Under the pieces are notes generated by a model. The model saw nothing but the letters and a program-made list of their open reading frames with translations, did no database searches and was not told the DNA's origin. From Hormiphora californensis (taxonomy: Eukaryota > Animalia > Ctenophora): 64,000 nt of DNA. Positions 412-63,097 of the stretch are shown one piece after another (position 1 is the first letter of the stretch; each line of letters opens with the position of its first letter). A program made the position numbers and the translations under genes. Location: assembly GCA_020137815.1 (NCBI GenBank), contig CM035357.1, positions 6,758,001-6,822,000 of the forward strand, read 5' to 3'.

Positions 412-1134
412 CCTGTCTTATAATGATGTAGACTTCTTGAAGGTTCATGACGAAAATCCCATCGGTTGGCTCCTTTTCGTCGTCATAAAGGTAAACAGCA
501 AGGGCCGGCTCTATTCTATCCGGACAAGACAGTGTGTAGGTTTGGGCTTCTTGAGAATACCGATCAGGGTTGAGAGAGTTGATCGTCCCACATATTGTGG
601 TGGTTGTCGCTCCGATAAGAGACACTTGTGTACCCAATAGTCGATTTGTGGCGTACCAATAACCGTAGTACCTATAATGATATTATATTAATACATATAC
701 AGTCGGACCCCGATTTACCGCGGGATGATTAACTTCCCCCGAACTATTTTTGTTTTTGAACTCGTACATATCACACATCAATAGGGGTGAGGAGTCAGTA
801 GGGCGTGAGAGGAGTCAGTAGGGCGTGAGAGGAGTCAATAGGGCGTGAGAGGAGTCAATAGGGGGTGAGAGGAGTCAATAGGGCGTGAGAGGAGTCAATA
901 GAGGGTGAAATGCGTCAATGGGGGGGGGAGTCAGTAAGGGGTGATAGGAGTTAACAGTAGGGAGAGGAGTCAATAGGGGTGAGGGGTAGGGAGTCAATAG
1001 GGCGTGAGAGGAGTCAATAGGGGTGAGGGGTAGGGAGTCAATAGGGGGTGGGATGATTGGCAATCAGTAGGGGGTGAGGGAAGTCAATCTAGGTATAAGG
1101 AGAGTCAACAGGAGGAAGATGGGTCCATTCAATA

Positions 1135-1186
<52 letters not shown>

Positions 1187-1555
1187 GGGGGGCCGGGGGG
1201 ATGAGAACTGACAAGAGGAGGTCAATGAGATTGTAGCTACAAACCCCTCCTAGGGTTGAGAGGAGTTTTTTGGCATGGGCTCTCTCTTGTAATACATGGT
1301 GTGGTTCACATACCTATTCATAACAACTACTTTGTCCACTCTCGACTGATGCCTGGCAAGTGTCAAATTCAGCCATTGCGGTTGATGTTGAAGGCTTGAA
1401 TGGTACGTTGAACTAGGATTGCCATCAATAGCTCTTGATGGTACGGCACCGCCATACACGCTTCTTGAAGTTGCCCCACTGAATGCACTTGATCCTCCAG
1501 ATTTCCAGATCTCCCCATTGGAAAGGGGCAGAATAAGGAAAAGAAGAACAAACAT
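412..1555 (-). CDS. Secreted F-type lectin/discoidin (F5/8C-like) domain protein, antisense in a presumed dynein intron; 3' end uncertain
   Basis: Exon 1 1555-1314: signal peptide MFVLLFLILPLSNG, then PSRAIDGNPSSTYHS..QPQWLNLTL..VDKVVVMNR. Exon 2 671-412: YYGYWYATNRLLGTQVSL..ICGTI..TYTLSC..VMNLQEVYI. GT-AG junction is in phase. Confidence 0.75.
781..1090. repeat. 20-bp minisatellite inside the lectin intron
   Basis: Repeated GGGCGTGAGAGGAGTCAATA; a poly-G run follows at 1136-1200. Confidence 0.9.
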
Positions 1556-1946
1556 CTGCTAAATAGAGGTTAAATTATGTAATGGTTTCTGGTTGTTAAC
1601 CGGACCATGCTGCTCCTCAGTGAAAGCAAAATGTTTATCACAACACTATCTTAAGCTATAGAAACAAATCTTTCCCAAAGACAGACATCTCTCACAAGTG
1701 TTCTAGAGATGATCTGTCTGTTGTAATGGCGATTGTTTCTTGTTTAGAGAGAAGCTGTGTGCTGCAGTAATGGCGATTGTTTCTTGCCTTCAACTACCAG
1801 TATAGAAAACTATATAAAAGTGAAGCTACGAGCTAGAGCTATCTAGCCCATCATGGTGAAGCTGTGTGTAACGGTGATTGTTCAGAAAGTGCTAATAATA
1901 GCAGGCTTAGAATCCCATTAGCTCTAGAGCCCTTTCTCTACGGAGG

Positions 1947-5400: not shown

Positions 5401-8400
5401 AAAAGTAGGGCCAAAAAAAGCCAAAAAAAGCCAGACCCGCCCTAAAATCCGGGATTGATCTGGCTTTTTTTGGCCTTGGCCCCCCCCCATTATCTAAATC
5501 AATTGCTTTATTAGAGACTAAATCAGCAGTAGACAATAAGTCGATATAACCCCATTGCACTGGAAAGTGGAACTGAGGGCTAACAAACTCTTACCATTAC
5601 ACACATCTTACAGGTGGGATGAGTGCTGAAGACACCGTTAATGATCTAGCAGGTCGGATCCTGGGTGGGATGCCACCCCAATTTGATCTGGCCGCGGTTT
5701 ACGAGGCATTCCCTATCCTATACGAGGACAGTATGAACACATGCCTCAGACAGGAGTGTATCAGGTAAAAAGAGGTGTTATAACTCTGAAAACTAGGTTC
5801 CACCAGATAACAGATACCATGGGTCACAGCTAATTGGAAACTTACCCAGTTTTAACAACTCAGGGGCTCTTCGACGAAACTTTAAGCACACTTAAAAACG
5901 TTGCGTAACTCTCCTTTCACACCTTCTAATTGATTTTCACACCCCTTAAGCATGGTTTGTGTCGACGAAACTTTTTAGGAATCTTGCTTAGTGAAAATTG
6001 AGGGGTAGTAAGTGAAGTTTTACACAAGCTCTCCAAACCTTGCGTAACTCCCTAATCACGTGGTAAAATCACGTGATTTGGGTCAAATTGAAGCGACAAT
6101 GACGTCATAGTTCACGCAATATCTCACTCAAATATCGAGTAAAGTGAGGTTTGTTAAGTCTCCTCGAGAGGAGACTTAATGGTAGACAAGACAGCGCTGG
6201 CAAGTAAAAGATGCTACAAAACAGTGTATATTTTGCTTCTCGCATGTAGATAAAAGACAAAATGGCACTCCTTGTCCCCCAGTTAGCTATCTCTACTCAA
6301 CCACAATATTGAGGCACTAGTTTGGGGTTTCAGCCAAGCCCATGCTGCATACACATTACACCATCTGTATTAGACTCTCACAGTCACAGATAAGATGTGG
6401 ATGAACTCAGTTGTTTTCCTTCTGGCAGGACAAGATGAACAGTGAACTACTACTATACTTATACTGTTTATCTCTTCATTTAGCAGCCTATCTATTCATC
6501 TCACCCGGCCTAAATAATATTGCAAGTTATGAGTGTATAGGTTTATTGATTTTTCATAATGATTAATGAACAATCAATGTTAGATCTCTATTTGTCCGCT
6601 ATAACATGCATTGCCAGCTACTGTAAGATTACACAGAGCTTTGAAGATTTGAAATTTCTTGAATCTTGAGAAATGGAAGTCAAACTTCTTCTTCACCCCC
6701 AATCTGGTGTGATATCTCGCTAACACTATTGGCTGGTGAACCCTACACGTGACCAAATTGACGCCTGTGTAAACCCATGTAATGGAAATCCTATCACGTG
6801 TCCAGTTTCGATCCCCTGATTGGTTTTCTACACCCATACACGAGGGGTGATCCGGGGCTTCACGTGGTATACACGTGGTTCACACCAAGGACCTAAAGTG
6901 AGGTTTTGGAAAGCGTTCGACGACACCCCTCTCGAGACAAGTCTGAAAAATTTTCCTTGTGTAACTCTAAAGAGAGCTTATTTATTAAGTGTGCTTAAGG
7001 GTACACCTGGCGTTTTTCATCATCGAGTGCCCAACCAAATGACTTCACCAGGGTTTAGGCCATACAAAATGGACCTCAAATATGCAATTTTAGCCCTAAA
7101 GTTGAATTCATATTTTTGCTACAGCCTATTTTCAAAGTGGCGTTTTTTCAATTTTTGGTGGAATTTTTAACCTCAGGACCACTTTTTTTGAGATAGAAAC
7201 ATTAAATTCTTGGAATTTGAAGAGAATATAAAGGTAAATAAGCCCAAAGAAGGATTTTTGAAATGGAGCTAATTTATGGCCATGAGAACGGTTTACTTTT
7301 TTGCTTCTTTGACACGCTGGCTGAGAATGTTCCCATGCTTCATTAGAGATGAAAATCTGGAAATAGTTGCTCAAAACGATTATCTATGTGGCCCAAAAAT
7401 TTTGGAACTTTCCCGTCAAAGATGTGGTGTACAGAGCTTGTTTTGTGAAACCCATCTTTTTGAAAAAGAGGGAGATTCCCTGTATCTCAAAAACGGATGA
7501 TCGTAGAGACCTGCGACCAAGCTTAATCGATTCAGAAGGTCCGATTTTGGGGGGGTCTTCTGAGAGACATTTTGCTCCTACTCCAACCGTTTTTGCTGTA
7601 CTTGCAAAAAACCAATTCTATGAAAAGGGGGAACAACTAAATTCCAGTAGCCTGCTTCGGGCTGATTTCCCCCTTACTTGCTGATAGCTTTTTCGCAATT
7701 ACAGCAAAAACGGTTGGAGTAGGAGCAAAATGTCTCTCAGAAGACCCCCCCAAAATCGGACCTTCTGAATCGATTAAGCTTGGTCGCAGGTCTCTACGAT
7801 CATCCGTTTTTGAGATACAGGGAATTTCCCTCTTTTTCAAAAAGATGGGTTTCACAAAACAAGCTCTGTACACCACATCTTTGACGGGAAAGTTCCAAAA
7901 TTTTTGGGCCACATAGATAATCGTTTTGAGCAACTATTTCCCGATTTTCATCTCTAATGAAGCATGGGAACATTCTCAGCCAGCGTGTCAAAGAAGCAAA
8001 AAAGTAAACCGTTCTCATGGCCATAAATTAGCTCCATTTCAAAAATCCTTCTTTGGGCTTATTTACCTTTATATTCTCTTCAAATTCCAAGAATTTAATG
8101 TTTCTATCTCAAAAAAAGTGGTCCTGAGGTTAAAAATTCCACCAAAAATTGAAAAAACGCCACTTTGAAAATAGGCTGTAGCAAAAATATGAATTCGACT
8201 TTAGGGCTAAAATTGCATATTTGAGGTCCATTTTGTATGGCCTAAACCCTGGTGAAGTCATTTGGTTGGGCACTCGATGATGAAAAACGCCAGGTGTACC
8301 CTTAAAGTTTCGTCGAAGAGCCCCAGCAATATGATTCATATTAGTCTAACATCTCTCTCCCATTCTAGGTACAACCGGCTAACAGCAGTTATCAAAGCGA

Positions 8401-9690: not shown

Positions 9691-10386
9691 ATGAATTTGA
9701 TTAGCAATAGCAGGGCTACCCCCCGGTTACCTGTAAACGATTACTAATGCAATGGGATTAGTTATTTGACTAGAATGATGACACTAGGTGATTGGAGTAC
9801 CAAAACGGACAGTATTTATTGTGTTTATAGGTGATATGATAGACAATTTGTATAAACATTTCTACTGAATATTTAATAATGAAGTTAATGAGATAAAGAT
9901 ATTTGTAACTTACTCTTAGTAAGTGCATCAGTTTGTATTTGTAAATTTCTAAGCTTGTAGTTATCATTTAACTTTTTCCTCAAGTAAATAATTTATGTCT
10001 TTGGTATGAAAAGTTGCCATGCTACGCAGTCTGTTCGGCTCGCGTAAGCTCACACCGGACCCTCTGCCCGGTGTGAGAGCCGACAGACTGGGAACATGTC
10101 AAATGAAAAGGCGACAAATTTGGATCTATACGTTCTTGACTTTATGTTGGAATGTAGCGCGCGGAGGAAACACTTTAAATGTGCCATTTATGATGCGCGC
10201 TAAGCGCGTATTAGAAAATTGATATTGAAATATCCCTGAAAATCCAAACAAACCAAAAACTCGTTTTTGTTCATTTTTTTCTCATTTTCCGTTTTTGATT
10301 TTCAAACTATCAATTTCAAGCTATATTTCCAAATTTTGAAATGTATTTCACCTATTTTATCTCTACAAACCGTTACCCCAATAGGA

Positions 10387-11127
10387 ATGCTTCTATTGGA
10401 GCCGTTTTGGGTGTTTGCGTCGGTGTCATTCTGCGTCGCCTGCTGCCGAAACAAGATCCTGCTGTGCTCGGACATTTGGTCAAATCGTTACTTCACTACC
10501 CTAATCCTCCTAACCACTATCTTCTTTACTCCTTTCGAAAACTGGATCCTTATAAAACACATCGAGTGGGAGACGACCTTTCTCGTGGAGGACGGTCCCG
10601 GGAAATCAGTGATCGGTTTCGCGGCCGTCCTTCATATTGCGACCCTTCTCATTGGATACCGGTTTAGCATCTTTATGTTGCAGTGGTTTGGACCTCACGC
10701 CCTGGTACGAGCATCCATCTTCTCCTACACAATCTTCTTCTCTTCCCAGGGGGTGTTTTGTGACACCCTCCTGTATTCGGGAACATATGCCGAGTATCAT
10801 GCGGGAGTCCACAAAGATATGACGTCATTCTTTTTCACCCAGAGATTCGTCGATGCATATGTGCTCTTTTTTCTGACCTTCGGGCCACCGTTTTTCTACA
10901 CTGCCTATGTCTGGCACAAAGAATGCAGTGAGGCAGATAGGAAGTGGTTTGGTGATCTGGTCGTTAGGGAATCCATAGTACAGGGGTGTGCGTTGTGTGG
11001 AATATATTTTCTCTTGGCGTTGTTTGGGGTTTTACCCGCGAATCACACATGTGCGCGTACCTTCATTGTGGCGTTCATGAACTTTTCACCGTTAGCTATT
11101 CTAGTGTATCCGTTTAAAAAGTTTTGA
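10387..11127 (+). CDS. Intronless multi-pass membrane protein (246 aa), unknown function
   Basis: Uninterrupted ORF with about 7 hydrophobic segments; ATG directly after an acceptor-like CCAATAG|GA; AATAAA repeats near 11190-11220. Confidence 0.7.
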   Translation: MLLLEPFWVFASVSFCVACCRNKILLCSDIWSNRYFTTLILLTTIFFTPFENWILIKHIEWETTFLVEDGPGKSVIGFAAVLHIATLLIGYRFSIFMLQWFGPHALVRASIFSYTIFFSSQGVFCDTLLYSGTYAEYHAGVHKDMTSFFFTQRFVDAYVLFFLTFGPPFFYTAYVWHKECSEADRKWFGDLVVRESIVQGCALCGIYFLLALFGVLPANHTCARTFIVAFMNFSPLAILVYPFKKF

Positions 11128-11480
11128 AAACTCTGAGCTCCGCTGTTTAAACTTTCAGTGTTGCTGTAGTTTATTTCGTGTTACATGTAAAATAAAAATA
11201 AAATAAAAATAAAATAAAAATTACATTTATGTTCACTTTACTTCCGTATCTATACAATTAATTAAATTTTAATCGTTTGCTGCTAGCTGAAATCTTCGTT
11301 GTTATTATTTATTTGCGGTTATTTTACTTTTTGTTATGCATTTTATTTTTGTTCATGAATTATTTGTTTTTAAAATCGAACATCCGTTTTGTTATTCCCT
11401 ACCGAAGGCCCGCTACGCTATATTCTCCCTATTCCCATGATATAACACAACTAATAACTCTCTCACCAATAGGTCGCACA

Positions 11481-12713
11481 ATGCTGGCCACAATGCTTAT
11501 CTCCTGGTTCCTCCGGCTATCCCAGTTCTTCCTGAATCTCATCTTCCGACCTCCCAGTAAAACCAACCAAGTGGTGTGCTATGACGTGCTATACCATAGC
11601 AAAGCCATGCAATTCGGGAATAACAACCCAGCCCACTTTCTCCGCAAGTACACCACAACTCGTGATGTGTCCTGGTTGAATCAGGAGGATGTCCACTTGT
11701 TTTGTGTCACAGAAAAGAGCTTCGTCTTCGCCCGGACCACCCCTGGAGTTGATATCCATAATATTTCGGAGCATCCCTTCCTGTACAATGCGAAAATCCA
11801 GCCATACTGTGGAGCTGGGTGTGATCTCAACCTGACCTTGCTCTAGATCTTGTGCGAGATAGGAACGGATGATGGATCTAATATTGGATACCTTCACAAT
11901 TTGGGACGGTGCGGGTCAACCCTAGTGTGTAATATGGTCTTCAAAACTGGCCAATGTCAGGTGCTTATCAGAGCCGGGTGCTTTGTTTGATATCACTGCG
12001 GAAACAGTCCAGAAGCCGGAACTAATGGACTGATCCTCTTACCGTAGAACGGGTCAGGGCTGTTCTACTTTTCCTGGCTAAAAACCCGGAACGAAAATAT
12101 TTCATTCAAGATTCATTCCTTCCTGATGTATATTCTCCCGCTCATTCACAAGGCCCTGCCAGGGGTTAGGGAAGCCTTCATGTACAGATCTTTGAAGCCC
12201 ATGTTTATATCCGCTAAACGGGCATTCAATCTTGGCAACATGCCATTTTATATCTTCAAGAGGTTTGCTGTTAGTGCTGGGTTCAACACAAGCGAAGGTT
12301 TTACAGAGTTGGAGCGAGAAGGTGCCGATAGTATTGATAAAGTGTCGCTGTATGGATATGTCAGGGATACCCGCACATACATGGATGAGGCTCTTACTCG
12401 GTCCGATCTAGTAGCGTATAGTTACGAGTCTCTCATTGCCAATCCAGAGGGGTTTGTAGCCCATTTCTTGGATCAAATTGGGGTGGGCTCGGAGTGGGCG
12501 GATCTTGCTGTAACAGCTATGAACGAGGATAGTCAGAAGAATTCCTGGCTGAGTAAGAAAGATGTGGAGGAACGAGTAAAGAAGGTGGAGGTTATCTTGG
12601 AGAAGGAAGCAGAGGAGTTTGTAAAGAGGTTGGCAGGGGAGAAGTTTATGATTGAGTTGGAAGGAGATAAATTAGAGATGACAAACATTGCTAACCAGTG
12701 GAATAAAAACTAA
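11481..12713 (+). CDS. Sulfotransferase-like P-loop protein, apparently intronless, with several frameshifts at about 11790-12125 (sequencing errors or pseudogenisation)
   Basis: N-terminal ORF to HPFLYNA; frame-shifted YLHNLGRCGSTLVCNM and LSEPGAL; C-terminal ORF 12126-12713 with AYSYESLIANPE and MNEDSQKNSWLS. Confidence 0.65.
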
Positions 12714-13193: not shown

Positions 13194-14601
13194 ATGAGGC
13201 TGGTAAGGTTCTTGTTGAGGTACTACCCCCCTGGCATCATCCTGGAATACGAACAGGCCTCACAGGTAACTGGGATATATCTGAATTGTCTTGGATACCC
13301 ATTTAGATTTCCTCTTCACCGCCTCCGGGATGTCTTGCGGGGGCTCAACGCTCACAAGTTCGGCTAACAAATACTCCTTATCTATTGAAGTTCACTCCTA
13401 CCCTGCTACCAGGTCCGTACTAAAACGATAGATCTGCTGGACCTAACAGAGCGTACCAATGTGTTTGAGTTGGTTGCACAACTACAGCAGTCTGAACCTC
13501 TTATAACTGCCAACAAAGTCGACCAGGTAATTTAAATGTCATCTTCTTTTAACAATCTTCTAGAAAATTCCATCAAAGCGTTTTGAACTTTGAAATTCTT
13601 GGTAAATTAATTAAACTGGTGCCATTTATTTTTCTTTGAAATTCGACGCTATTTCCAATCCATTCGATAGAAGATCAATGCTATGACATAATGCTAAACT
13701 GTCTCTAGTTCTGAGATGCAGTTTCATAGAGTGTAACCCGTTTAGTTTATAATATCTTTGAGAATAATGGCACCAGTTTAGTTAAACGGTTTAACCACTA
13801 GGCACTACCAGCTTCCTAGCTGTCAATCTAGCTCCACCCTTCTCTAAAATTATATATTCTCTCACTCTCACATCAACCCTTTTCTACAAGACGACAGTTC
13901 TCTATAACACCTACTACTCAAACCTACTCTCTGTCCCAGGTTTCTAAGCTGTTACTAAAGCTCCAATCAAAGTTATGCTCTCTTGATAAGCACAAGTATG
14001 TGCACTACAAGACCCTTCGGACACATGTCCTACCGGTGACTAATGTGTGTTTTAACAAGAGTGGCTCAAAGTTTATATCTGGTGAGTGTCACGGGCACAG
14101 TTAGAATCAAACAGCCGTTGCTTGTCAACCCAATCTCTAAGGAATATAATGTCGTTTTTAGTTTTTAGCTGCTTTTAGCAAACTTATATCACTCACTTGA
14201 TTTTATAAACTGTATAGAAACTTTTATAATTTTCTCTAAACCTCTTGATCCCTCTATTTTTCAGGGAGCTATGACAGAACCTGTAAAGTTTGGGACACAC
14301 ACAAAGCCACTGAGTTGCACGTGTTGGACGGACATAAAAACGTGGTTTACGCAGTTGCATTCAACAACCCTTTTGGTGATAAAATTGTTACTGGATCGTT
14401 CGATAGGTACTAACTAAATTAATTGGTATCGAAGTTATCCCTCCCTTGCGTATTTATACAACTCTATGTTGGTTGTTTTTTCTTGTTTTATCGCCTTAAA
14501 AAGCATAATGATAATAAACGGTCATTGTTCATCTTGTTCGTGTGCGGTGTGAGAACAACTTCAATTTACTCCCCCCCCTCTCTCTCTCTCTCTCTCTCTC
14601 C

Positions 14602-14665
<64 letters not shown>

Positions 14666-15768
14666 ATCCCTCTCCCTTTCTCCCCCTGTCCCAACTCATC
14701 TAGCTATCACAATAACTCGTTCATCTTGCACTACTCAACCCTATCTTACAGAATTCTCATTTAATTGTCTCGTCTAACTATCTCCATGAAATACCTGTCC
14801 AGACTAGACCACCCACCACGCCATTCTCTGAGTTCACTGAGTTCACCCCCTCACTCATTATCCCACCCACCACGCCAGTATTCTCTGAGTTCACCCGTTA
14901 TCCCACCCACCACGCCAGTATTTATGCTCTGAGTTCATTATCCCATCCCCAGGACAGCCAAATTGTGGAGTACAGAAACAGGAAAGTGCTATCACACCTT
15001 CAAGGGTCATACAGCGGAGATAGTCTGTGTGGCGTTCAACCCATCTAGTACCTTGGTAGCTACTGGTAGTATGGACACCATGGGCAAGATTTGGGATGTG
15101 GAGAGTGGCTCTGAGATGGCATGTCTACAGGTATTGTTGTTGTTGTTGCCAAACTTGGTAACCGTCTTCCAAACTGATGAGTTGGTAAGGGGCTACCAAG
15201 TTACCAAGGATTTCCAAATCATATATTTTTCAAAAGAGAGAAAGGTGAAAGAAAGGCTAAGAATAGTGACATTACGTTTTGAGCGTGTTAAATGGTTACA
15301 CCTTTCCCACTGCTGTGGCTAAGTTTTGATTGCAAAAAGGAAGGGAAGTAAACTACTAGTAAACTACTCTCAAATTGAGTTTCGAAATTTTACCAAATCG
15401 TCTTTCAAAATCCAATGTGTTACACTATAGGCCAATTTCATGTAAAGTAGTAGTAATATACGCGGATTCGCGGAAAGCTTCGTGCCAATCGCGGATAACC
15501 AATCGCGGACAAGTGTATATCAATCGCGAAAACGATACGAGGATACGTGGATACGTGGATACTTATCCCAGATTTGTTATTTTTGTAGCTTTTTATTCTG
15601 TAAATTAGTAGGTTCTATGTACTTGGGTGAGCAAATCAGTAAAAGTGAGAGCAACAAGATTCATTGTTATAGCTCTCAGCTAGTAGGAGACGGAGTCATT
15701 CATTGAACAGGGTGTTCTATTGTTACTAGTCTTGTACATGCCTCTCTCTATCTCCTCTCTCTCTCTCT

Positions 15769-15820
<52 letters not shown>

Positions 15821-18617
15821 ATCTATCTATCTTCCTTTCTCTCTCTGGAGTTCCTTTTCACTGGCTCCGATCATCAGTCATGACCTTCCTCTTACTCTCC
15901 CTCTCGATTCTTAAAGACACACATTTCAAGAGTATGCTTCGCTTTGTCGTGACCCTCTGTTTAGCTCTGCTAGCCGGTAAGAAAACGATTTGATTTCCGC
16001 TAGACTGACCAAGAAAAGTCAACCAATTGTTTATGCTACCTTACTGTCTACTCAATGAGTAGTACTCATCCAGCGCTGACACACTCTTTTACAGACGGCT
16101 TTCAAAGCTCTCTAAAGTTTCCTGGTGAGAGTTCTATTGCCAACTATGGGATCCAGAAAACATTCTACGACACAGAGAAGGAGCCAATAACCGAGTTAAC
16201 TATTTCTCTCTGGATCTTGTATGATGACCTTCCCAACAGTAAAAAAAATGAAATGCCTTTCTCCTATGCTATATCAAATTATGTTGATTCGATTATAGTG
16301 TGTAAATTTAAAGGGACGGAAAACAACATGGTATATGTCAATTTCGGGCTTTTCCGTGGAAATGGATGGCCTGAAACAAGTAAGTCGCGTGATTTATCTT
16401 CGTTAATGCCATGTAAATTAAGTTTTCTCATCACGATACTTCCCTCCCAGAGATTGCTTTTGTCCCAAACCAATGGCTACACACTGTGTTTGTCTACGAT
16501 GGGACCACTGCATCTCTCTTTATTAATGGGGAGTTGGTAAATGAAGTCAAGAAGTCAAAGGCTGGCAGGGTTATTGAAAGAGATGGAATACTTGTTCTAG
16601 GACAGGTCAGTAGTTATACTCCTAGTTCATCTGAGAACTGTGACATTTAGTACTGAGATACCTCTACAGAGAATTTTGAAACAGTTTGCAAAGATGGTAT
16701 TAATTCAATGTCCCATTTTAAATCACTGTTTTTCTAAACTTTAGGACCAAGATCAACTTGGAGGAGGGTTTGATGTTCGCAACGCTTTCTCGGGTCTAGA
16801 GATTTCACGTCCGGTTTGGTTGGATAGGGCGATTGATAGCAGCGAAGTGACAACACTATACCAGTCAGATAGCTACAGCGGAGTTAACAGAATTGAATGG
16901 GGGAGAATGGAGTTACACGGAAATGTTTCATTGGTTACCAAACAACGTAGGAAGGGGGTCGGTGGAACGAGGGAGATTTTGTAGTGGTGTTTAAAATAGG
17001 GATTTTATCGGGGAAACTTGGGTGAAATTCTTTGGAAAGTTAGGGCACTTTCCAAAGCAATTTAATACTTAACTTCTTCCCTTTTATTCCCTTATTGTTG
17101 TTAATTTCTCTCCTTCTTTTATGTTACAACAATTAATCCTTCTCTTCCCTTTCAGTAAGTGTTTGATTCTGCACAGAAATTGTTAATCCACGAACCATCG
17201 TTTCCACGATTGATATCCACTTATCTGCGACTGATATCCGCGACTGATATCCGCCATTCAATTTGCTATCTTATCCGCGATCAAGCAGTTCCGCGATTGA
17301 TATAGCCAGAATTTTGGATAGAGTGGCTCACATGAGTCATGACCAAAATTGGATTTTGAATTATCCCCCTCCTAAAGCCACGGCACATCTCTCATCCTGC
17401 CTCTCTCTCCCTTCCAGGGTCACACATCCGAGATAATATCAATCCAGTTCAGTAACTTAGGAGACAAAGTTGTTACGGGTAGCTTTGATAATAGCGTCAG
17501 CATTTGGGATGTGGAATCGGGCCACAAAATATTATCACTACTAGGTGTGTATGTGATACCCTGGATTTATGTACTAAATCAAACAATCTTGTGTTTTACA
17601 ATAACCTAACACATCCTTCCTCTCTCTCTTGCAGGTCACCGGGGGGAGATATCCAATGCGGTAATTAGTTATGATGACTCTCTAATAGCATCTGGATCAA
17701 TGGATAAAACCTGCAAATTATGGGACACCAGGTTAGCTTTTTACAAATGTAAATACACATAGTTAATTGGTCGATGTAGTTGATTAATTACATTCAACAC
17801 CAAAATACTAGTTTCTCCCTTACCTTTACATCTTCGCAGATCTGGTACATGTGTGGAGACACTGTATGGTCATACAGATGAGGTTCTAGATATCGCATTT
17901 GATCATCGGGGTCGACAACTTCTATCTGCTTCGGCTGATACAACAGGTTTATACTAGTCCCCTGTTAATTAATTTTAGTACCATTCTTTCTTCTTCTTCT
18001 TGGAGGCCGTCTCCATTGGTTGAGATTAAGGGTTGGAACCATAGAGTTTCCTTTCCCCGGCCTGGTTTTATTCACATTCAATAGTACTTTTATTATGTAT
18101 CAATATGCCCATATTTATCAAATTATCTGTTTTCCATCACAGCTCGAGTGTTCGACGTTGCCACATTTAAATGTCTGTCCACCTTTGTGGGACATGAGCG
18201 GGAGATCAGCAAGGCGACGTTTAACCCTAGCGGAAAGAGGGTAGCAACTGCTAGCAGTGATAGCACTGTGCGTATCTGGGATATTGCATCTAGCAACTGT
18301 CTTCAGGTAATTAGTCCATAATCAGTGGTGGATTCACCCTTTGAATGATCCCTACTCGGCTTTAGTGAGATACCCTGTCTTAAACTCCCATCTCTCTCCT
18401 CCCCCGAATGATATTGAATCCCATTTCTTTCTATCTTATCTCACTCCAACTGTAGTAATACTGACTCCATATATCTCTCCAGGTATTAGAAGGGCACACT
18501 GACGAAGTATTCAGCTGTCAATTCAACTATTCAGGGGACATGTTAATCAGTGGAAGCAAGGACAATACATGTAGATTGTGGAGGGATGAGAACGCTGAGC
18601 GGATGGCAGCAGCATAA
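13194..18617 (+). CDS. DAW1: Dynein assembly factor with WD repeats 1 (WDR69/ODA16)
   Basis: N-terminus [29 protein letters not shown], followed by WD40 repeats. Exons about 13194-13265, 13413-13526, 13940-14081, 14265-14406, 14953-15130, 17418-17544, 17635-17731, 17840-17946, 18143-18306, 18483-18617. Confidence 0.95.
13612..13780. mobile_element. Small MITE-like inverted repeat in DAW1 intron 2
   Basis: TAAACTGGTGCCATT ... AATGGCACCAGTTTA. Confidence 0.55.
15404..17360. mobile_element. Degenerate long-inverted-repeat element enclosing the pentraxin gene
   Basis: Ends TTCAAAATCCAAT / ATTGGATTTTGAA; subterminal AATCGCGGATA-like repeats on the left are mirrored as TATCCGCGAT-like repeats on the right. 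No clear TSD. Confidence 0.6.
15934..16984 (+). CDS. Secreted pentraxin-domain protein nested in DAW1 intron 5, same strand
   Basis: Exons 15934-15976 (signal peptide [14 protein letters not shown]), 16095-16379, 16451-16605, 16745-16984, all in phase. Motifs [49 protein letters not shown]. Confidence 0.9.
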
Positions 18618-19357: not shown

Positions 19358-22300
19358 ATGAATTGGATATTCCTCCTCCTCCTATCCTTGTTCACTCCAG
19401 GATTTAATACAGCACACACCAATAACTGGGCTGTAATAGTCGATGCGAGCCGGTACTGGTTCAACTATCGACATGTAGCTAATGCTCTATCTATCTATTA
19501 CTCTGTTAAACGACTGGGTAAGGTTTGACATGTAGATCATTTTATACAAAAAGAGAGGAAGAGATTCGAGAATTTGTTATTTCGCAATATTATTTCAAGA
19601 ATCCTGTGACGCGTCCTGATAGCTGCGCTTTTTCAAAATTGTTCATCCAGCCCTCTTGGAAAGACTAATTTCCTTGTTTCAGGTATCCCTGATAGTCACA
19701 TAATCCTGATGTTATCAGACGACATGGCGTGTAACCCTCGTAACCCCACGTCCGCTCAGGTAAGTACACAGGTCACGCTATCCCTTGGTTATGAAATTAC
19801 CCCTCATCGCGAGCCTAGCTCCCGGAGCGTAATAGGGGTGACTTCGTAACCCCGTGTAGGTCAAACCATCCCTGTCAAGTGTCAAAAATAGGGCCCCAAT
19901 TGTTAGTTGAGATAGTCCCGTCTTGGTAAAAGAAAGATAGCGACCTTTCCAGATTGTATCATTCGAGTCTCACAAGTTGTCCCTACTCAGAGCTGCTAGT
20001 GTTACCGATGTAGAAAAGTCAACCCGAGTCTTGACAAACTTCCTAAAGCTGCTCATTCTTGCAAAATATATCATCGGGTTTACTGCCGCATTGATTGCCA
20101 CTAAATACACACTTCCCACACAGAGAAAAGTTCCAGTAAGGCGTACAAGCTTCACCCCGAATAGGATCTCTATATCGTAGTTAGTCATGAAGAGATAATG
20201 AGGTACATTGCATGTAAAGAAGAGGAGGATCATCAGAAATACCGTGTTAGCTGCCCGTTCCCTGTTCCTTACCTCCCGCTCCAGGCCCGGTGTAGGGGGT
20301 TGGGCAGAGCGTCGTTTCAGGAGGCAGAACGCTAGAAGTGAGCTGACTATAGTGGTTACCATGGGGATGGTATACATGGTAGAATACAGGAAGTGGTATG
20401 GAACCATTATACTCTCATCTAGACTTGTAACTGTCCAATCACACGTTCCTGTATATGAGGTATACACCCTCACCCCACTCCAATCGGGACTACTCTCATA
20501 CAGGATGAGGTAGGCCAAGACCGCCCCTAGGGATGCCCAAACTGCCCTAGGGGGAATGTGGCGGAAGGGATCGTAGACGGATATTAGGCGAGCTATGGAC
20601 AGGATGCATGTCGTGAAGATACTGAGACGAGAGAGAATATTCCACATCCAGCTGTAGGTGATACATGTGAAGGTCACGGAGGCTGTCTTGATGTCGTAAT
20701 CTGAAGGAATATTCATCAATTTAATAGCTGAAGGGTTTATCTGCTACTGATTTATTGACATGAACTACATAGGTGAATGGTGAATGACAACTGAGAAGTA
20801 CCTCTTACCCAGGATAATAAGAATGGCAGTATGAAGCATTAGAGCACACAACACAGAATCAGTCGCACTCAGCAACAAACAAATCTTATCTGAAAATAGT
20901 GGGTCATACAGATTAGGTAATACTAAAGAATACTGCCCGAACCGGTCTGAAGGCACTGTAACTTGTTCGAAAATGTATTCATAAGAACGGGGAGGGTGGT
21001 GTTGTATTCAACAAACCTGAGACAGTACTCTTGTATCTCCTGGTAAAGTAGGCCAGTGCCACCAAGTTGGCTGGTAGTCCAAACAGGAAACAGGAAAGAG
21101 CAACCAAACAGAGAACTGTTCGAATGATTGGAGACTCGCTAATTGCTGGTCCTCCTGCTGGGGCTTCAGGAGGAAACAAAATCATGATGGTGGCTAATGA
21201 AGTCGTTAATTAGGAGAAATGGTACTTATCAAATAGCTGCTTCTGGTAACTCTGACAGCTGAGAGTTACAGACAAAAGATTTAGTACTAAAATCAAGAAT
21301 GAAACAACGATAATAATACACCCGTTGCCGTTATTAGGAGAATTGATACATACCATAACACACAACGGACGCATGGTCCCTGTGAAATGGTTGCGAGAGA
21401 GCTGAAAGAAAAAAAAAGACAAAGGATGTAGCAGTAAAATCAAGAATGAAATTTTGACGTAGCATAATCGCTTTAACTCTTATAGTGTCTCCTGCCGTCT
21501 ATCCACCTGTCCCAAGGGTAGCGATGCGAGGTAGAGAAATATAGGGCCTACATAACATTTATCTTTCAGATTTAAAATCGAGAAATATATTTTCAGATTT
21601 TCAACAACAGAGATCGGCATGTTCAGATATACCCTGACGATGTAGAGGTAAAACTAAGCACATAGCAGTTAGCACCCCTTCCCTGGCACCTGTTACCATA
21701 TAACATATCAAGTTCAAGAGATAAAGATGAAAATGGCAGCTATATATAGCTGCCATTTTCATCTTTATCTCTTCAACTCATCTCAATCTCTTCCATTTCG
21801 ATTTCCCCCGTTCTTATCAAATCAAATCAATCTCAGTCTATCCCTAACTCTGCAATCATAAGAAATACCTCCTCCCGACCTCCCTCCTCTCAGATAAGTT
21901 TGAACCCTCCCTAGGTCGACTATCGAGATAGTGAGGTTACAGTTGAGAACTTCTTCCGAGTTCTAACAGACAGACTCCCCGAGGGTACACCACGGTCTAA
22001 GAGGCTAATGAGTGATGAAAACAGCAACATCCTAGTCTATCTGACAGGTATTATAGTCACTGGGATTTGTTGGTATGTTCTAGCCCTCCTTTACATTTGG
22101 AGCACACGGAAAGGGGTCGAGCTAGGCAAGGGATTTCATAATCAGGGAACAGCTGGTATGTTAGGAAATAATGCGTTGTTGGTCGAGATCTATGGGATAA
22201 CGGATAAATTTTATCAAAATATAAACCACCCCCCCTGCTGATATTTCCCGCAGTCTACTGTGGTATATCAAATAATTCCCTCCCTCTGTTTTCACACCTT

Positions 22301-24688
22301 TCATAATTCCCGGGGTCGTTTTATAAGAAATAACCACGGCTAGTAAAGTGATGAAATTTGATAATCCCCTACGGGGATTATCACACGATATTCCCCTCGT
22401 CACTCCGTTCCTCGTGGATATCGTATTGATATACCAGCCTAATAGGCTGGTATATCAGATTTCATCCCTCTACTAACCGGGTTTTTTTTTTTTTTTTTTT
22501 TTTTTCGTATCTTCTCCGCATCCATAGTTTTGCAAGGAGTTAACCTTTGTTTCTGTATCTCAAGGGCTGCCTTACAAAACATGAATTCACCGCGCCCCAT
22601 CTTGCCCTCTGTCTTTTCGACACGAACGCTGCACAGCCCTGCTCTCTCCGTCACATGAGTATAGACTGCTAATTGAATATCAACATTGATGGTTGCTCTT
22701 CAATCAAGAGTCGCACGAGAGAGCAGCATGGTTGTACAGCTAGACAACATGGTTTGGGATGGCATTAGTTCCGACGGCACAACCTTATACAGCGCTTGGC
22801 CAGCGCGGGGTGAACCTGCCAGGGCCGTCCCGACCACTCTCTTTTTTCAGAAAGAGCCTAAAATTTACGAGCTACAATTGGTAATTTGGGTCGGGGGCAG
22901 GTCGGTAGAACTTCGACAGAATTTAGGGTAGGTCAATTTAGGGTAGGTCAGAATTTAGGGTAGGTCAATTTAGGGTAGGTCTGAATTTAGGGTAGGTCAA
23001 TTTAGGGTAGGTCTGAATTTAGGCTAGGTCTGAATTTAGGGTAGGTCAATTTAGGGTAGGTCTGAATTTAGGGTAGGTCCGTAATGTATCAAAGCATTGC
23101 AATTCGACATTAGGTTCTGATTAGGTCGCTGAACCGCGTCCCGTATCTCATATCAACTCATTTCAATTCGATCTTAGTCACCGATTAGGTCGCTGAACCA
23201 CGTCCCGTATCTCGTGTCAACTCATTTCAATTCGAGGTTAGACACAAATTAGGTCCCTGAAACACGTCCCGTATCTCGTATCAACTCATTTCAATTCGAT
23301 CTTAGTCACCGATTGGGTCGCTGAACAGCGTCCCGTATCTCGTATCAACTCATTGAAATTCGAGGTTAGACACAGATTAGGTCACTGAACCACGTCCCGT
23401 ATCTTGTATCAAATCATTACAATTCGAGGTTAGACACAAATTAGATGGCAAACGAATTGTTTTTTTTTCTTAAACAGGTTTCAACTCAGGATGGAACTCT
23501 AAAAGTCTACGTACATTTATAAACTAATCAGTGAACAGTCAAACAGTCCTAATTTCATTTGATGCGATACGGAACACAGTCTACCGACCTAACTCAGTTC
23601 ACCTACTTTAAGTAGTACTTAGTGTCGATGGAATTGCAATGAGTTGATACGAGATACGGGACGTGGTTCAGCGACCTAATCAGAACCTAATCTCGAATTG
23701 CAATGATTTGATAAACGATACGTTACGGACCGGGGGGGGGGGGGGGTTCAGGATAAATGGTTCGGACGTATATGCCACTTAAGGGGGTGGGTGTTTTTTC
23801 AAAATTGCCACTTAGTGTTTTTGGCTAAATGGTCATTTTTTGGCCAAATTTGGTCAATTTTCGGCCAAATTTGGTCAATTTTCGGTAAAAATTGAGATTC
23901 TTCGAGGTGGACCTGAAAAATTTTCAATTTTTAAAATTCAAATTTCAATTTTATCGCGCCCGAAAATTTTTTCTGGAAATTTTTTGGTTTTGTTCCCAGA
24001 AAACAGCCTAAATTTTGCCTTTTTTGGGGCAAAAAAGCTAGTTTTTCGGTAAATTTTGGGGGTTTAGGGGTCTATTTGGGGTTTGACCACTAAAAGAAAC
24101 TGATTAAGTGGTCAATTTTAGGGGGTGGGGGGGTCCTTTTGGATTTTGACCACTTAAGCAATTTTTAGGCATATACGTCCGACCACTTAATCCTGAACCC
24201 CCCCCCCCCCCCCCCCCCCCCCGTACGGACCTACCTTAAATTCAGACCTACCCTAAATTCAGACCTACCCTAAATTCAGACCTACCCTAAATTCAGACCT
24301 GCCCTAAATTCAGACCTACCCTAAATTCAGACCTACCCTAAATTCAGACCTACCCTAAATTCAGACCTACCCTAAATTCTGTCGAAGTTCTACCGACCTG
24401 CCGGGTCGGGACTGCACCCTAGCAAGTGTAGTTGATAGAAGTAGGGGGAGAGAGAGAGAGAGAGTGAGAGAGAGAGAGAAAGAGGGAGAACGGATAAAAT
24501 CAGTATACACAATGTATAAAGGCAAGATCCGATCCCGGCTGGCTCCTACTGACATATATTAACAATATTATAAAATTCTTTGCTTCGGAGAAAAGAATTG
24601 AAATAGAAGAAAGAGGAGAGAGGGGGAAGAGGAGATAGAGAGGATAAAGGGGGGAAATTTTTTGGGAATTTTTTCGGGAAATTTTTTG

Positions 24689-24723
<35 letters not shown>

Positions 24724-24766
24724 CCCCCCCCCCCTTTTTTTTTTGGCCCCCCCTTTTTTTTTGGGG

Positions 24767-24799
<33 letters not shown>

Positions 24800-26751
24800 G
24801 GGGGTTTTTTTTTTCCCCCTTTTTTTTTCCCCCCCTTTTTTTTTAAAAATTTTTTTTTGGGGTTTTTTTTTCCCCCCCCCGGGGGTTTTTTTTTGGGGGG
24901 GGCCCCTACCAAAAATTCCTAAATTCCCAAAACTTTGAAAAATAACCTAGACAACGGGAAATTAGTTATGAAAGGGTTCATTCCCCCTGGACCAGGAAAA
25001 ACTTGGGAAACAGAGGACCTTTGGCTGTTAAGATGGTACTCCCTGTCCTGAAATTTAGGTTAAGGGAGGGGCCGGGGAGGGATTGAAAACGGAAAAGAAG
25101 GGGGAGGTCCCAATGCACCGTAGGCAAAGAAAGAGGGGGAAAGAAGAATGAGGAAGGGATGAACACAGCCGAAAGGAAGAAGATAAAAGAAGGTGAGTAA
25201 GTGTATAGAAAAGATACGGGAACAAAAGAGATCAGGGGGAAGAATAACGGGAAAGAAGGGGATAAAGTGCATCCAAAAAATAAGGGGAAGGAAAAATGAG
25301 ATTTGAAGATAAAAAGAAGTAACTGAAAAAGAAGGTGTGGCTGAATAGAATTCTTGCTGGAACATGAAATGATCTGGAACAGTTGAATGCTGAATTTGTG
25401 ATTTTCTCCAAATTTGCCCAACCCAACATACAGATTTATTCACATCAATTGATCAGACACAGAACGTGATCTGAGCGTGGTATGATATGCTGAGCAATGC
25501 CTCGGTGAGCTAGTGAGTGGACGGGAGGCTGCTGAATTATAGGCCCCATGACACTCTCCGCTTAATGACAGTTTCCATGGGGGGCCTATCTAGTGACTTC
25601 ACTGTGGATGTGAAGGTGGCTGAGAAATGAAGGTGGCCGGGAGCTGCTCACCAACAGTAACATGCGATAAACGTGCTAAGTCAGCGACACAAAACCATAT
25701 AATTATGGACGCAACACTATAATGTACTACTCAGTTCTACTCTCTCGCAATCTCTTAATCAACCAAGGATTTGAATTTTGAACATTATGTACAACTGCAA
25801 ATTCATTATGAGTCATTTGTAGTGCGTTTATCAGTTGCATTGATTATAGTTAAACAATAAACATAGAGTTCTTATCCTGTTCAATTGTGTAGATTTGTAG
25901 TTGGTTGGGTGGTTCAAACACAAAGACAAGGGAGGGATGGTGCGAGGATGGTTTAGGGAGGGTATACGATTACAAAGATAAGGGACGATCAGACGATCAA
26001 CTTTTTCTACAATGCAAAGAGGGAAGTGAACTAACCGGGGTTATCTATATTATAAACCACCCCCCCTGTTGATATTTCCCGCACTCTACTGTGGTATATC
26101 AGATAATTTCTCCTTCACACTGTCGCTGTGAATTTCCCCCTTCATAATTCCCTTCCTTTTTTCCCGCCGTCTACAGTTCAAATGAATTTATACAGTTCAA
26201 ATTACATGAATACAGTTCAAATTACAGTTCAAATGTGAATAATAATAAAGAAACATAATCAATCTTTTGGGGGTGGTTTATAATAAATAACCCCACTGTG
26301 TGTCGGGATGAAATATGCGATATTCCCTTGCCTTCGGCTGCGGGAATATCAGCAGTTATTCCCTGCTCGCTCCGCGAGCAGTGGAATAACTGAACGATAT
26401 ACCACCCTGACAGGGTGGTATATCAGATTTCATCCCGACACACAGTGGGGTTATCTATATTATAAAATACAAATTACACATCACTAAGTTCACTAATAAT
26501 ATACCAGAACAAAAGGAACAACCCTTCTGGGGGTCACTATAACATGAACACCCTGTACACACATCTAATGAGGTGCAAAGGACGTGTCATGTATAATGAT
26601 AGCTAGACATAATGCATTTCTCGAGGAGTTGGACGACCAGCGTCATATGGAGAACCACCTGGAACACCTGGTCTAAACGTCCGCTCTATTTTATATCGCA
26701 TATAATACGGGGATCGCTTTCTCTCTCTCTCTCTCTCTCTCTCGCTCTCTC

Positions 26752-26821
<70 letters not shown>

Positions 26822-29489
26822 TCTCCCCCTCTCTCTCTCATCACATATATCACGTCCTGATACCATTGTTACGTGACGTGGGAGACGAAATCATCACCTG
26901 TGACCCATATTCAAAATGGAATAACATCCAGGGATGATCCTGAAATGAAACTGATACTACCGGCGAAACTGGGGTTACCCTGCTGCCATGGTACTATCGG
27001 TACAGAATAAGATATCCCTCACTTAATGGTATATTGATCTTTCACCTCATGAGGGTTGGGCCCTGGTGTTGCTCTATACTGATTATCCTCACTCCCCTAG
27101 TATAATAGCTCTGCCTGTTACTCCCACCTTCCATTAATCTATTCTATCTATTCTATATCACTGATTTACCCTTGCAGGTCACGGTGGGGATGGATTCCTC
27201 AAGTTCCAAGATACAGAGGAGATGAATGCCATGGAGCTATCTGATGTATTTCAACAGATGCACGAAAAGAAACGGTAATACCATGTAGTGTAATACCATG
27301 TGTCATGAAGCTTGAACTTTGGTGACACAGAGTACTACGTTGGTAACTTATCACTCCCCCCCCCCCCCCCCCCCCCGCTTTTGTTGTGTCTCTAATATCG
27401 CCAAGTTTTACCTATCCTGAATCCATTACTTGCGTAATCCCTGCGTATCCCTTGCGTATTCTATGCGGAACCATAGCGTATTCCTTGCGTATTCCTTGCG
27501 TATACCTTGCGTTTTCCTTGCGTAATCCTTGGGGGGGGGGGCGACATGTTAATTGTTAATAAATCACCTCTTTTTTCCGATTTTGTTAATTAACGTTAAT
27601 TAACAAAATTAACAAAGTTAACAAATCAGCAAAAACTGTTCTTATTGGTTGATAATACGACTTTAACTGGTTTAATTTTATAGTTTAATGACTTTTCTAA
27701 CACATATATACCCAAACAAGGCCTCTTCCGATAACCAAAGTCCGACATACATGTTTTTTGGCTCAAAATCGATAAAATCCAAAAGTTAAAAATATTTCAA
27801 TTTAGCGTATAAAATCTCACTTTAACGTGATTTTTTCATCGATAATCGATTCTTTGAACGAATGAAGATGATGTACAACGTTTCTGTCGGAAAAATAAAC
27901 AAAATATTTCCAAAATCAATTTTTTGGTCAAAAATTGAAAATTTGCTTCGCTACAAATCCTTGTGTTTTTTTAGAAAAATTGATTTTTGGGATATTTTTG
28001 TTTTATGGTAAATTCATGAGTCTCAATTAGTTTTTAGGGTTTAAAAAAGGTGGATTAGGGTCAATTGACTTCAATTGCGGTTTAGTTTGGCTAGTTTTTA
28101 TTAAAATTTACACAATGGAACAAATCGCTGTAGAAAAGCCGTAGTAGAGGTTAGTAGGAGTGTGCAAATCGTGCAAGAGGAACAACTTTGCTCGCAGAAC
28201 AAGTGTTAAATACCAAAAACACGCGCTTAAGGTGATTTAGATGGCATAAATGGCATTTGTTAACGTTTGTTAACTTTTTGTTAATTTTGTTAATAAATCA
28301 CCTGTTTTCTCGATGTTAATATTAACAAAGTTAACAAAATTAACATGTCGCACCCCCCAATCCTTGCGCTTTTTAGAAAATGGAGAACCCCGTGAGTACC
28401 CCATTTTATCCCAGGTATAACGAGTTATTGTTCATGATAGACACGTGTCAAGCTGGGTCCATGGTCCTACCCATCAAATCACCCAATATCATTGGGGTGG
28501 GGTCCAGTACAGTAGGACAGGACTCCCTCTCTCACCATGGTGACCATGAAATAGGTATTATTGGGTTTGGTTACAGCAACCTTTTCATAAAACTAATCGA
28601 CTGAAATTTCATCTCTGAAGGATTTTGACTTTTAGAAATATACCATGGAAATCAGAAATATTTCTGTTGAACCAATGTATCAACATTTCCTAGGTGTGTA
28701 TGTGATAGACAGGTGGACTTATTACACCCTGGATTTTCTGGAGAAGATCCGACCTAACAGCCAGGCCAAACTGAAGGAACTATTCAGGTGAGTCCTGGAA
28801 ATTTGCCAGTAATACCAGGACTCTAATAGCGTTTTTTGTCGGAATGTTTTGACTTGCCTCTTATGTCTGGTTTAGCGAGTGTGGGTGTGGGTAATCCTCT
28901 AACCAAGTTGTTGCTTGCGTGCGAAAAATATTTTGTTACACATTGCCAGCTTGTCTGAAGAGGTCTTCTTTTGTTCTTTCATCCAAGCTGGACTCCTTGT
29001 TTGGCTACAGTTTTATTTACATCGCAAGGAAGCTTATTTTTTCTTTTCCTTGTATGTACTGCCAGGCCAATGCTCTGACAGTCCTAGTGGCCAATCAGAC
29101 AGCAGCTCCCTCAAACTACACCCTCTTTCACCCCCAGCTCCCTCAAACTACACCCTCTTTCACCCCCAGCTCCCTCAAACTACACCCTCTTTCACCCCCA
29201 GCTCCCTCAAACTACACCCTCTTTCACCCCCAGCTCAAACTCCACTCTCTTTTTCAGGGTCTACTCTACGGCGGATATCCGATCAACACCCCAATATTCC
29301 AACCTGAAACTCTTCAACTCCCGGCCTATTGACAAAATTCTCATCACTGACTTCTTCGGGAGTGTTCGGCAGACGGTTCTGTTTAACGAAGGGACGGTGG
29401 AAGAGGCGTTAGCACAACGGACAGTGGGGGAAGAGGCGCTGTTTTTGGTACCGAACAATCTGGAATTAGTATCACAACTTCCCTTTTAA
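19358..29489 (+). CDS. PIGK: GPI-anchor transamidase catalytic subunit (GPI8, peptidase C13)
   Basis: [68 protein letters not shown]. Exons about 19358-19517, 19683-19759, 21597-21647, 21915-22047, 27178-27274, 28415-28554, 28694-28787, 29258-29489. Confidence 0.95.
19970..21185 (-). CDS. Orphan rhodopsin-class (class A) GPCR nested antisense in PIGK intron 2
   Basis: Exons 21185-21017, 20889-20809, 20727-19970. TM motifs FGLPAN (TM1), LSATD (TM2), SIARL (DRY position), CNVP (TM6), NAAVNPMIY (TM7). Confidence 0.9.
21716..21773. repeat. Perfect 58-bp palindrome in PIGK intron 3
   Basis: AAGAGATAAAGATGAAAATGGCAGCTATA|TATAGCTGCCATTTTCATCTTTATCTCTT. Confidence 0.95.
22200..22481. mobile_element. 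Multi-hairpin non-autonomous element (Crypton-like), copy 1
   Basis: TATAAACCACCCCCC inverted-repeat module, then an outer stem enclosing three hairpins; homologous to 26030-26465. Confidence 0.55.
22820..24421. mobile_element. Fold-back-like element with inverted subterminal arrays
   Basis: Imperfect ends CAGGGCCGTCCCGACC / GGTCGGGACTGCACCCTA; AATTTAGGGTAGGTC(TG) arrays mirrored at both ends; about six internal copies of a 62-bp unit at 23100-23450, with an inverted copy near 23630-23700. Confidence 0.75.
23731..24223. mobile_element. Poly-G/poly-C-capped TIR element nested in the fold-back element
   Basis: C-G15-TTCAGGATAAATGGTTCGGACGTATATGCC ... GGCATATACGTCCGACCACTTAATCCTGAA-C25-G; TSD TACGGAC. 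Confidence 0.85.
26030..26465. mobile_element. Multi-hairpin non-autonomous element (Crypton-like), copy 2
   Basis: Sites GGGGTTATCTATATTATAAACC, GGTTTATAATAAATAACCCC and GGGGTTATCTATATTATAA; outer stem 26278-26314 / 26427-26465 enclosing three hairpins. Confidence 0.6.
27531..28358. mobile_element. Poly-G/poly-C-capped TIR element inserted in a CCTTGCGTATT array
   Basis: G11-CGACATGTTAATT ... AATTAACATGTCGCA-C6; TSD AATCCTT(G). Confidence 0.85.
29103..29250 (+). repeat. 32-bp tandem repeat abutting the last PIGK acceptor
   Basis: CAGCTCCCTCAAACTACACCCTCTTTCACCCC, four copies plus a partial copy. Confidence 0.9.
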
Positions 29490-32097: not shown

Positions 32098-32162
<65 letters not shown>

Positions 32163-42431: not shown

Positions 42432-42467
<36 letters not shown>

Positions 42468-52428: not shown

Positions 52429-63050
<10,622 letters not shown>

Positions 63051-63097
63051 GTGAGTAGTTACCATGACAACTTTAGTTAGTTACCATGGCAACTTAA

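What the first reader, a model, noticed from the sequence alone, without database searches (positions are those of the whole stretch)
15404..17360. Complete pentraxin gene enclosed by inverted arms inside a same-strand DAW1 intron
Seen: an intact 4-exon secreted pentraxin lies in DAW1 intron 5, bracketed by about 150-bp degenerate inverted arms (left CAATCGCGGATAACCAATCGCGGACAAGTGTATATCAATCGCGAAAACGAT; right, reverse-complemented, CAGTCGCGGATATCAGTCGCAGATAAGTGGATATCAATCGTGGAAACGAT) with 13-bp matching ends. Inference: either a Pack-type transposon carried a whole intron-containing gene into the intron, or the arms are retained as an RNA staple that loops the nested gene's splice sites out of the host pre-mRNA. 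The two are not exclusive.
Basis: partly seen in the sequence, partly recalled or inferred. Interest (0 to 1): 0.8.

Follow-up and report, generated by a model that had tools for sequence, protein, structure and literature searches.

The report
Whole gene inside intronic transposon ends
In a comb-jelly genome, an intact four-exon pentraxin-like gene lies inside an intron of a cilia-assembly gene on the same strand, between two inverted sequence arms that are likely the ends of an old transposon and are predicted to pair in the host's RNA, which could hide the inner gene from the host's splicing (untested).

Summary
DAW1 (10 exons, 17 of 17 listed variants synonymous) has a 2,287-nt intron 5 holding a same-strand, four-exon, signal-peptide pentraxin-like gene (240 aa). 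Inverted arms (15404-15552, 17186-17360) score 72 against at most 41 in 200 shuffles. The genome is a ctenophore close to Pleurobrachia bachei. The arms look like the two ends of one non-autonomous Foldback/Mutator-like element: matched 13-nt termini, a 13-nt unit repeated in both, no termini of their own. Gene-free elements of the same build fill four other introns here, so the staple geometry is what such insertions give anyway. No target-site duplication, parent gene, empty allele or second copy was found, so capture-and-jump is not shown. The arms are predicted to pair in the whole-intron fold (about 68 pairs) and shrink the intron to 330 nt, but mismatches do not favour the transcribed strand and the polymorphism test is inconclusive. 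Best reading: a Pack-TIR-like relic whose pairing is a by-product that may help splicing. It makes a stated open question, how ctenophores splice their many same-strand nested genes, directly testable.

The parts
13194..18617 (+). DAW1 (ODA16/WDR69) host gene, 10 exons, 425 aa
   Evidence: 17 of 17 listed coding variants synonymous
14953..15130 (+). DAW1 exon 5 (donor at 15131, phase 0)
15131..17417 (+). DAW1 intron 5, 2287 nt; 330 nt remain if 15404-17360 is taken out
15404..15552 (+). left arm: 13-nt terminus (15404-15416), spacer, CpG-rich core with 4 copies of a 13-nt unit
15553..15933 (+). upstream region of the nested gene with a CT microsatellite (about 15740-15848); promoter or trans-splice acceptor role is inferred only
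   Evidence: sequence; a similar CT tract precedes the DAW1 start
15934..15976 (+). pentraxin-like exon 1 (predicted signal peptide)
16095..16379 (+). pentraxin-like exon 2; two alleles differ at 18 of 209 nt
16451..16605 (+). pentraxin-like exon 3 (Laminin_G_3 match)
16745..16984 (+). pentraxin-like exon 4 with stop; tail shared with a homologue
17186..17360 (-). right arm: 6 copies of the 13-nt unit and the matching 13-nt terminus (17348-17360); ends 57 nt before the DAW1 acceptor
17418..17544 (+). DAW1 exon 6; its acceptor is the best-scoring one in the intron (19.2)

Best explanation
An intact pentraxin-like gene sits between inverted arms that are likely the left and right ends of one old, non-autonomous DNA transposon in DAW1 intron 5, and the arms are predicted to pair in the DAW1 pre-mRNA as a by-product of that origin. 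Inferred history: a Foldback/Mutator-like element with long modular ends inserted into a short intron of about 330 nt; the gene with its upstream region came to lie between the ends, most likely copied into the resident element by gap repair, less likely carried in by transposition. Inferred working: pairing of the arms (about 68 base pairs) closes a 1.6-kb loop over the six splice sites of the nested gene and brings the DAW1 donor near its acceptor, which would ease exon 5-6 splicing; that DAW1 depends on this is not shown.
For: Shown: matched 13-nt outer ends, a 13-nt unit at 4 places in the left and 6 in the right arm in mirror orientation (7 of the 12 window-wide matches at 10 of 13 or better), and no inverted termini within either arm (scores 30 and 44 against shuffle maxima 52 and 60). 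Gene-free elements with equally imperfect arms (56-68% alike, against 60% here) lie nearby, one with an 8-nt target duplication. Of 8 long introns tabulated, 7 hold an element with inverted ends and 5, DAW1 intron 5 included, shrink to 330 nt or less without it; three such elements end 44-57 nt before the acceptor. Both genes are under constraint (17 of 17 and 8 of 16 listed coding variants synonymous, 22% expected; no stop). Predicted: 69 arm-arm pairs in the minimum-energy fold of the whole intron, 58 of 149 left-arm bases paired at P>0.9, duplex -111.7 kcal/mol against -58.6 +/- 5.0 for shuffles. Published: single-copy Pack-TIRs in animals arise mostly by gap filling (PMC8277862, passages); 176 of 2357 nested genes of Hormiphora have transposons on both sides (PMC8527503, passages).
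Against: No target-site duplication (best 2 nt). No second copy of either arm in the window and no excess contig depth on them, so no element family is shown; copies as diverged as the two arms are from each other would have been missed (searches report 0 cross-fits). No parent gene in the window. No transposase or known terminal motif assigns a superfamily. The inner cores hold 0 of the 40 listed substitutions in run X5, a hint of constraint that a pure by-product does not predict.
Confidence: 0.6

Rival explanations
1. Whatever their origin, the arms are now kept by selection as an RNA staple that DAW1 needs: they loop the nested gene's splice sites and 3' end out of the host pre-mRNA.
For: Stable predicted pairing. 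Nested splice sites score as well as host ones (donors 9.7-10.8 against 9.3 for the DAW1 donor) and nested exon 4 and intron 3 are in phase with DAW1, so mis-splicing is a real risk. Cores show 0 listed substitutions in 211 nt against 27 in 1244 nt of other non-coding sequence in run X5. One X5 left-arm allele keeps the sense duplex (-2.0 kcal/mol) while weakening the antisense one (+8.4). The one fully visible antisense nested gene (a GPCR in PIG-K intron 2) has no arms (95 of 200 shuffles reach its score). Same-strand intron-containing nested genes are selected against in flies (PMC3814207, passages); paired regions that loop out exons promote skipping in human genes (PMC8052449, passages).
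Against: Mismatches do not favour the transcribed strand: 8 give G-U on it, 11 give G-U on the other strand, whose duplex is more stable (-127.8 against -111.7). Seven X5 substitutions were not listed; depending on where they lie P runs from 0.005 to 0.9, and for whole arms P = 0.25; the allele test gives P 0.12-0.2. Contigs drop variants. Gene-free elements give the same geometry. The strand comparison is 1 case against 1.
Confidence: 0.25
2. The arms are two separate insertions of one repeat family that happen to face each other on either side of a gene that arrived by other means.
For: The window is dense in repeats; 3 of 500 random window pairs reach the arm score; no target duplication around the pair; in Hormiphora 1109 nested genes have a transposon on at least one side.
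Against: Neither arm has its own termini; both start with the same 13 nt pointing outward; no other copy in 64 kb; contig depth on the arms is like that of the flanks (X1 35-45, X4 51-67) whereas a true common repeat in DAW1 intron 8 shows 441-24,855 and many loose ends (depth of contigs is only a rough guide).
Confidence: 0.1
3. The arms are a local inverted duplication made during the repair event that inserted the gene, with no transposon involved.
For: Single copy as far as seen, no target duplication, no superfamily motif.
Against: CpG-rich modular units (CpG observed/expected 2.1 and 1.4 against 0.59 in the window) and unequal unit numbers resemble the neighbouring elements, not intron sequence.
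Confidence: 0.05

Closest known systems
Pack-TIRs of animals, above all Ssk-FB4 of Drosophila melanogaster (PMC8277862; passages read)
   Same: Host-type coding gene with introns and upstream region between long inverted ends of a non-autonomous element.
   Different: Ssk-FB4 is young, multicopy, polymorphic, has 9-10-nt target duplications and a known parent. Here one copy is seen, present in both studies sampled, with no duplication and no parent; and it lies in a same-strand intron of a conserved gene.
Nested intronic genes of Hormiphora californensis (PMC8527503; passages read; supplement not readable)
   Same: Ctenophore nested gene flanked by transposon-like DNA on both sides (176 of 2357 there), parallel to its host, a case the paper says needs a special transcription or splicing system.
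   Different: The passages seen do not say that flanking elements are inverted ends of one element or could pair in RNA; this locus may be among their lists, which I could not see.
Long-range intronic pairings that loop out exons (PCCRs, RNA bridges; PMC8052449; passages read)
   Same: Complementary intronic blocks enclosing exons and a 3' end, predicted to promote skipping and to protect against premature cleavage.
   Different: Those are defined by cross-species conservation and enclose exons of the same gene; here an entire second gene is enclosed and conservation could not be tested.
Short pentraxins (CRP/SAP-like) and pentraxin domains
   Same: Signal peptide plus one full domain, with the acidic loop of exon 4 aligned to neuronal pentraxin-1, SAP-like and CRP chains.
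   Different: 27-32% identity only, below the Pfam cut-off, signature cysteine absent; ligand and oligomer unknown.

Membership tests
Pack-TIR / Pack-MULE | Paired terminal inverted repeats enclosing the cargo | tested here: met
Pack-TIR / Pack-MULE | Internal sequence is host-type, non-transposon DNA | tested here: met
   intact pentraxin-like gene with three introns
Pack-TIR / Pack-MULE | Target-site duplication | tested here: not met
   best 2 nt with ends shifted up to 3 nt, as by chance; flanks are polymorphic, so it may have decayed
Pack-TIR / Pack-MULE | Ends belong to a TIR family with other copies | tested here: inconclusive
   none in the window, none near-identical in contigs; no genome held
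Pack-TIR / Pack-MULE | Identifiable parent copy of the cargo | tested here: inconclusive
   none in 64 kb; a 64%-identical fragment exists in an unnamed metagenome record without context
Pack-TIR / Pack-MULE | Empty site in another allele or species | tested here: inconclusive
   no joint across the insert in runs X1, X4, X5, X6; no relative's intron available
Functional long-range splicing structure (RNA bridge / loop-out) | Stable predicted pairing in full context | tested here: met
Functional long-range splicing structure (RNA bridge / loop-out) | Strand-specific or compensatory substitution pattern | tested here: inconclusive
   arm mismatches show no sense bias; one allele leans to sense, P 0.12-0.2
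Functional long-range splicing structure (RNA bridge / loop-out) | Conservation across species | not testable with these tools
   no eukaryote genomes held; metagenome scans empty
Functional long-range splicing structure (RNA bridge / loop-out) | Splicing changes when pairing is broken and returns when restored | not testable with these tools
   bench test
Pentraxin family (PF00354) | Domain score above the curated cut-off | tested here: inconclusive
   single exons only: 17.7 bits against 25 for exon 4; the spliced model aligns along whole pentraxin domains
Pentraxin family (PF00354) | His-x-Cys-x-Ser/Thr-Trp signature (recalled) | tested here: not met
   no match; the His is there, the Cys is not
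DAW1/ODA16 | N-terminal domain plus WD40 propeller collinear with DAW1 | tested here: met

The most novel reading that the evidence does not exclude
Ctenophore transposon ends are self-stapling intron inserts: their inverted arms pair in the host pre-mRNA, restore a short effective intron, and so license whole multi-exon genes to nest on the same strand; where a gene lies inside, selection keeps the arms long after the element has died.
Probability: 0.2. Interest if true: 0.8.

Novelty: new variant of a known kind. Interest (0 to 1): 0.5.

Why it matters
Same-strand nested genes with introns are rare in flies because they disturb host splicing (PMC3814207), yet a ctenophore has many and the genome paper leaves open how they are processed (PMC8527503). 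This locus offers one concrete mechanism and a cheap genome-wide test. Even without the staple it is a rare animal example of a complete, constrained, intron-containing gene between transposon-like ends. Without that test it remains one locus in a genome where such elements and nested genes are both common.

Tried and rejected
No genome held, so no genome-wide arm search. No RNA holder listed. The one guessed RNA run, X7, laid a single contig: 50 nt on DAW1 exon 5 at 90%, with synonymous differences upstream and a loose end that reads on into exon 6; it comes from a diverged organism and says nothing about this insert. Run X6 has holes over the insert but no joint across it: no evidence. An 8-letter loose end at 17367 is too short to read as an empty allele. 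A fifth pentraxin exon (donor 16947, acceptor 17155) was considered; the donor scores -2.6 and a homologue shares the four-exon tail, so it was dropped, although one X6 contig deletes 16976-17015 with the stop. A likeness of 15376-15419 to the ctenophore spliced leader is chance: 39 of 40 shuffled leaders score as well in the window. No Rfam match in the intron. Arm pattern and exon 4 find nothing in JGI metagenomes. Exon 2 finds no homologue by word search or in the PDB; the Atlas gave no answer. No ctenophore DAW1 among 120 listed of 183 hits, none listed as fused to a pentraxin (Pfam lists are cut). BAG6 is not nested in the LNX-like gene, which starts at 52433, so no second same-strand case was found in the window. 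No gene detected inside the element at 5863-8324. No earlier findings. PMC4174434 (passages) had nothing on nested genes.

Full report
Observation. A ten-exon DAW1 model with GT-AG introns gives an open 425-aa protein collinear with 5 of 5 DAW1 proteins tested, and exon 5 hits DAW1 structures first. Intron 5 (15131-17417) is 2287 nt; the other eight are 90-546 nt. Inside it, on the same strand, four exons give a 240-aa protein with an N-terminal hydrophobic stretch. It is pentraxin-like: Laminin_G_3 on exon 3 and a sub-threshold Pentaxin hit on exon 4, 5 of 5 PDB hits of exon 4 are pentraxins, and the spliced model aligns along whole pentraxin domains among the 17 hits. An unnamed metagenome fragment is 64% identical over residues 185-238 and shares the tail, which backs the four-exon model. 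The recalled His-x-Cys signature is missing.

Organism. A BAG6 exon in the window is 84% identical to a protein of Pleurobrachia bachei, so the window comes from a close ctenophore relative; the species was not determined. No genome is held.

Both genes are alive. Among the variants that searches listed (40 rows each, of 216 and 47), 17 of 17 in DAW1 coding sequence are synonymous; in the nested gene 8 of 16 are (22% expected, P 0.013), none makes a stop, and the listed insertions and deletions fall outside its coding sequence. Two alleles of exon 2 differ at 18 of 209 nt at about half depth each, so both haplotypes of sample S1 carry the gene. S1 may be the source of the window; run X5 of a second study covers 30 of 30 bins, both arms included. 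No contig joins across the insert.

The arms. They run 15404-15552 and 17186-17360, 60% alike over 183 columns, with an 82% core of 51 nt and a perfect 13-nt outer end. The score of 72 is reached by 0 of 200 shuffles and by 3 of 500 random window pairs. A 13-nt CpG-rich unit occurs 4 times on the left and 6 times on the right, mirrored; neither arm has inverted termini of its own. This is the build of long modular transposon ends (Foldback or Mutator-like; label recalled), and of two ends of one element rather than two elements. There is no target-site duplication. Contig depth on the arms is like that of the flanks, unlike a real common repeat in DAW1 intron 8, but copies as diverged as the arms are from each other would have gone unseen.

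Context changes the weight of the finding. The window is full of elements with inverted ends. Of 15 examined, four gene-free ones have arms as imperfect as these (56-68%), one of them with an 8-nt target duplication, a length that 2 of 2000 random positions reach. Of 8 long introns tabulated (hand-picked from genes I could model; two other long introns left out; three boundaries off by a base or two), 7 hold such an element and 5 shrink to 330 nt or less without it. So an element that spans almost a whole intron and ends some 50 nt before the acceptor is ordinary here; what is special is the gene inside. For animals, PMC8277862 (passages) reports that single-copy Pack-TIRs arise mostly by gap filling into a resident element and describes Ssk-FB4, a nearly whole gene in a Foldback element. 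No parent lies in the window.

The staple. The arms are predicted to pair in the full intron: 69 pairs in the minimum-energy fold, 68 expected pairs in the ensemble, leaving 330 nt between DAW1 donor and acceptor. The need is plausible, since nested splice sites score like host ones under a matrix trained on 18 introns of the window, these included, and flies select against same-strand intron-containing nested genes (PMC3814207, passages). Against: arm mismatches give G-U on the transcribed strand 8 times and on the other strand 11 times, and the other strand pairs better. The cores hold 0 of 40 listed X5 substitutions, but 7 were not shown and P spans 0.005 to 0.9; whole arms give P 0.25; one left-arm allele spares the sense duplex, P 0.12-0.2. 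The antisense GPCR nested in PIG-K has no arms, which fits, but is one case. No RNA of this organism was available.

Verdict. Most likely a Pack-TIR-like relic (0.6) whose arms pair as a by-product; a selected staple gets 0.25, independent insertions 0.1, a local duplication 0.05. It works like a Pack-TIR but is not filed as one: the target duplication was tested and not found, and family and parent are unknown. The Hormiphora paper (PMC8527503, passages) already reports 176 nested genes with transposons on both sides and names the processing of parallel nested genes as a problem; its supplement could not be read and may list this kind of locus. Eight searches (listings and abstract starts, plus passages of five papers) showed no paper on transposon ends stapling out a same-strand nested gene. 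Interest 0.5: one locus, mechanism unproven, but it turns a stated open question into a direct test.

Noticed in passing
window 6995-8305 and 56338-57651: Two 98%-identical copies of a 1.3-kb near-perfect palindromic element with TTAA at its ends, each inserted into another inverted-ended element (5863-8324; 55868-58184); a related, non-palindromic copy at 63141-64000.
   Followed up: partly
window 4909-5489, 22872-24431, 26030-26466, 27534-28358, 31957-32263, 44593-45539, 60122-61079: Many non-autonomous elements with inverted, often modular ends, several nested in each other, filling host introns; 27534-28358 keeps an 8-nt target duplication.
   Followed up: partly
window 19973-21194 (-): Rhodopsin-family GPCR gene nested antisense in PIG-K (GPI8) intron 2, without inverted arms.
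   Followed up: partly
window 371-1558 (-): F5/8-type lectin-like gene, apparently nested antisense in a dynein heavy chain intron that starts outside the window.
   Followed up: no
window 38955-39028 (+): tRNA-Met gene on the same strand inside the first intron of a gene that starts at about 38257.
   Followed up: no
window 17988-18068: An 80-nt high-copy mini-repeat in DAW1 intron 8 (contig depth up to 24,855, many loose ends), single in this window.
   Followed up: no
window 10240-12710 (+): Three long single-exon open frames between the dynein gene and DAW1 without a significant Pfam match.
   Followed up: partly
window 16106-16314: The two alleles of pentraxin-like exon 2 differ at 8.6% of bases, high for an exon and suggestive of an immune gene.
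   Followed up: no
window 52433-63071 (+): LNX-like RING and PDZ gene whose second exon is preceded by a tandem array that copies the acceptor region (54566-55165).
   Followed up: no
window 24600-25400 and 42340-42830: Homopolymer-rich stretches that look like low-quality assembly.
   Followed up: no
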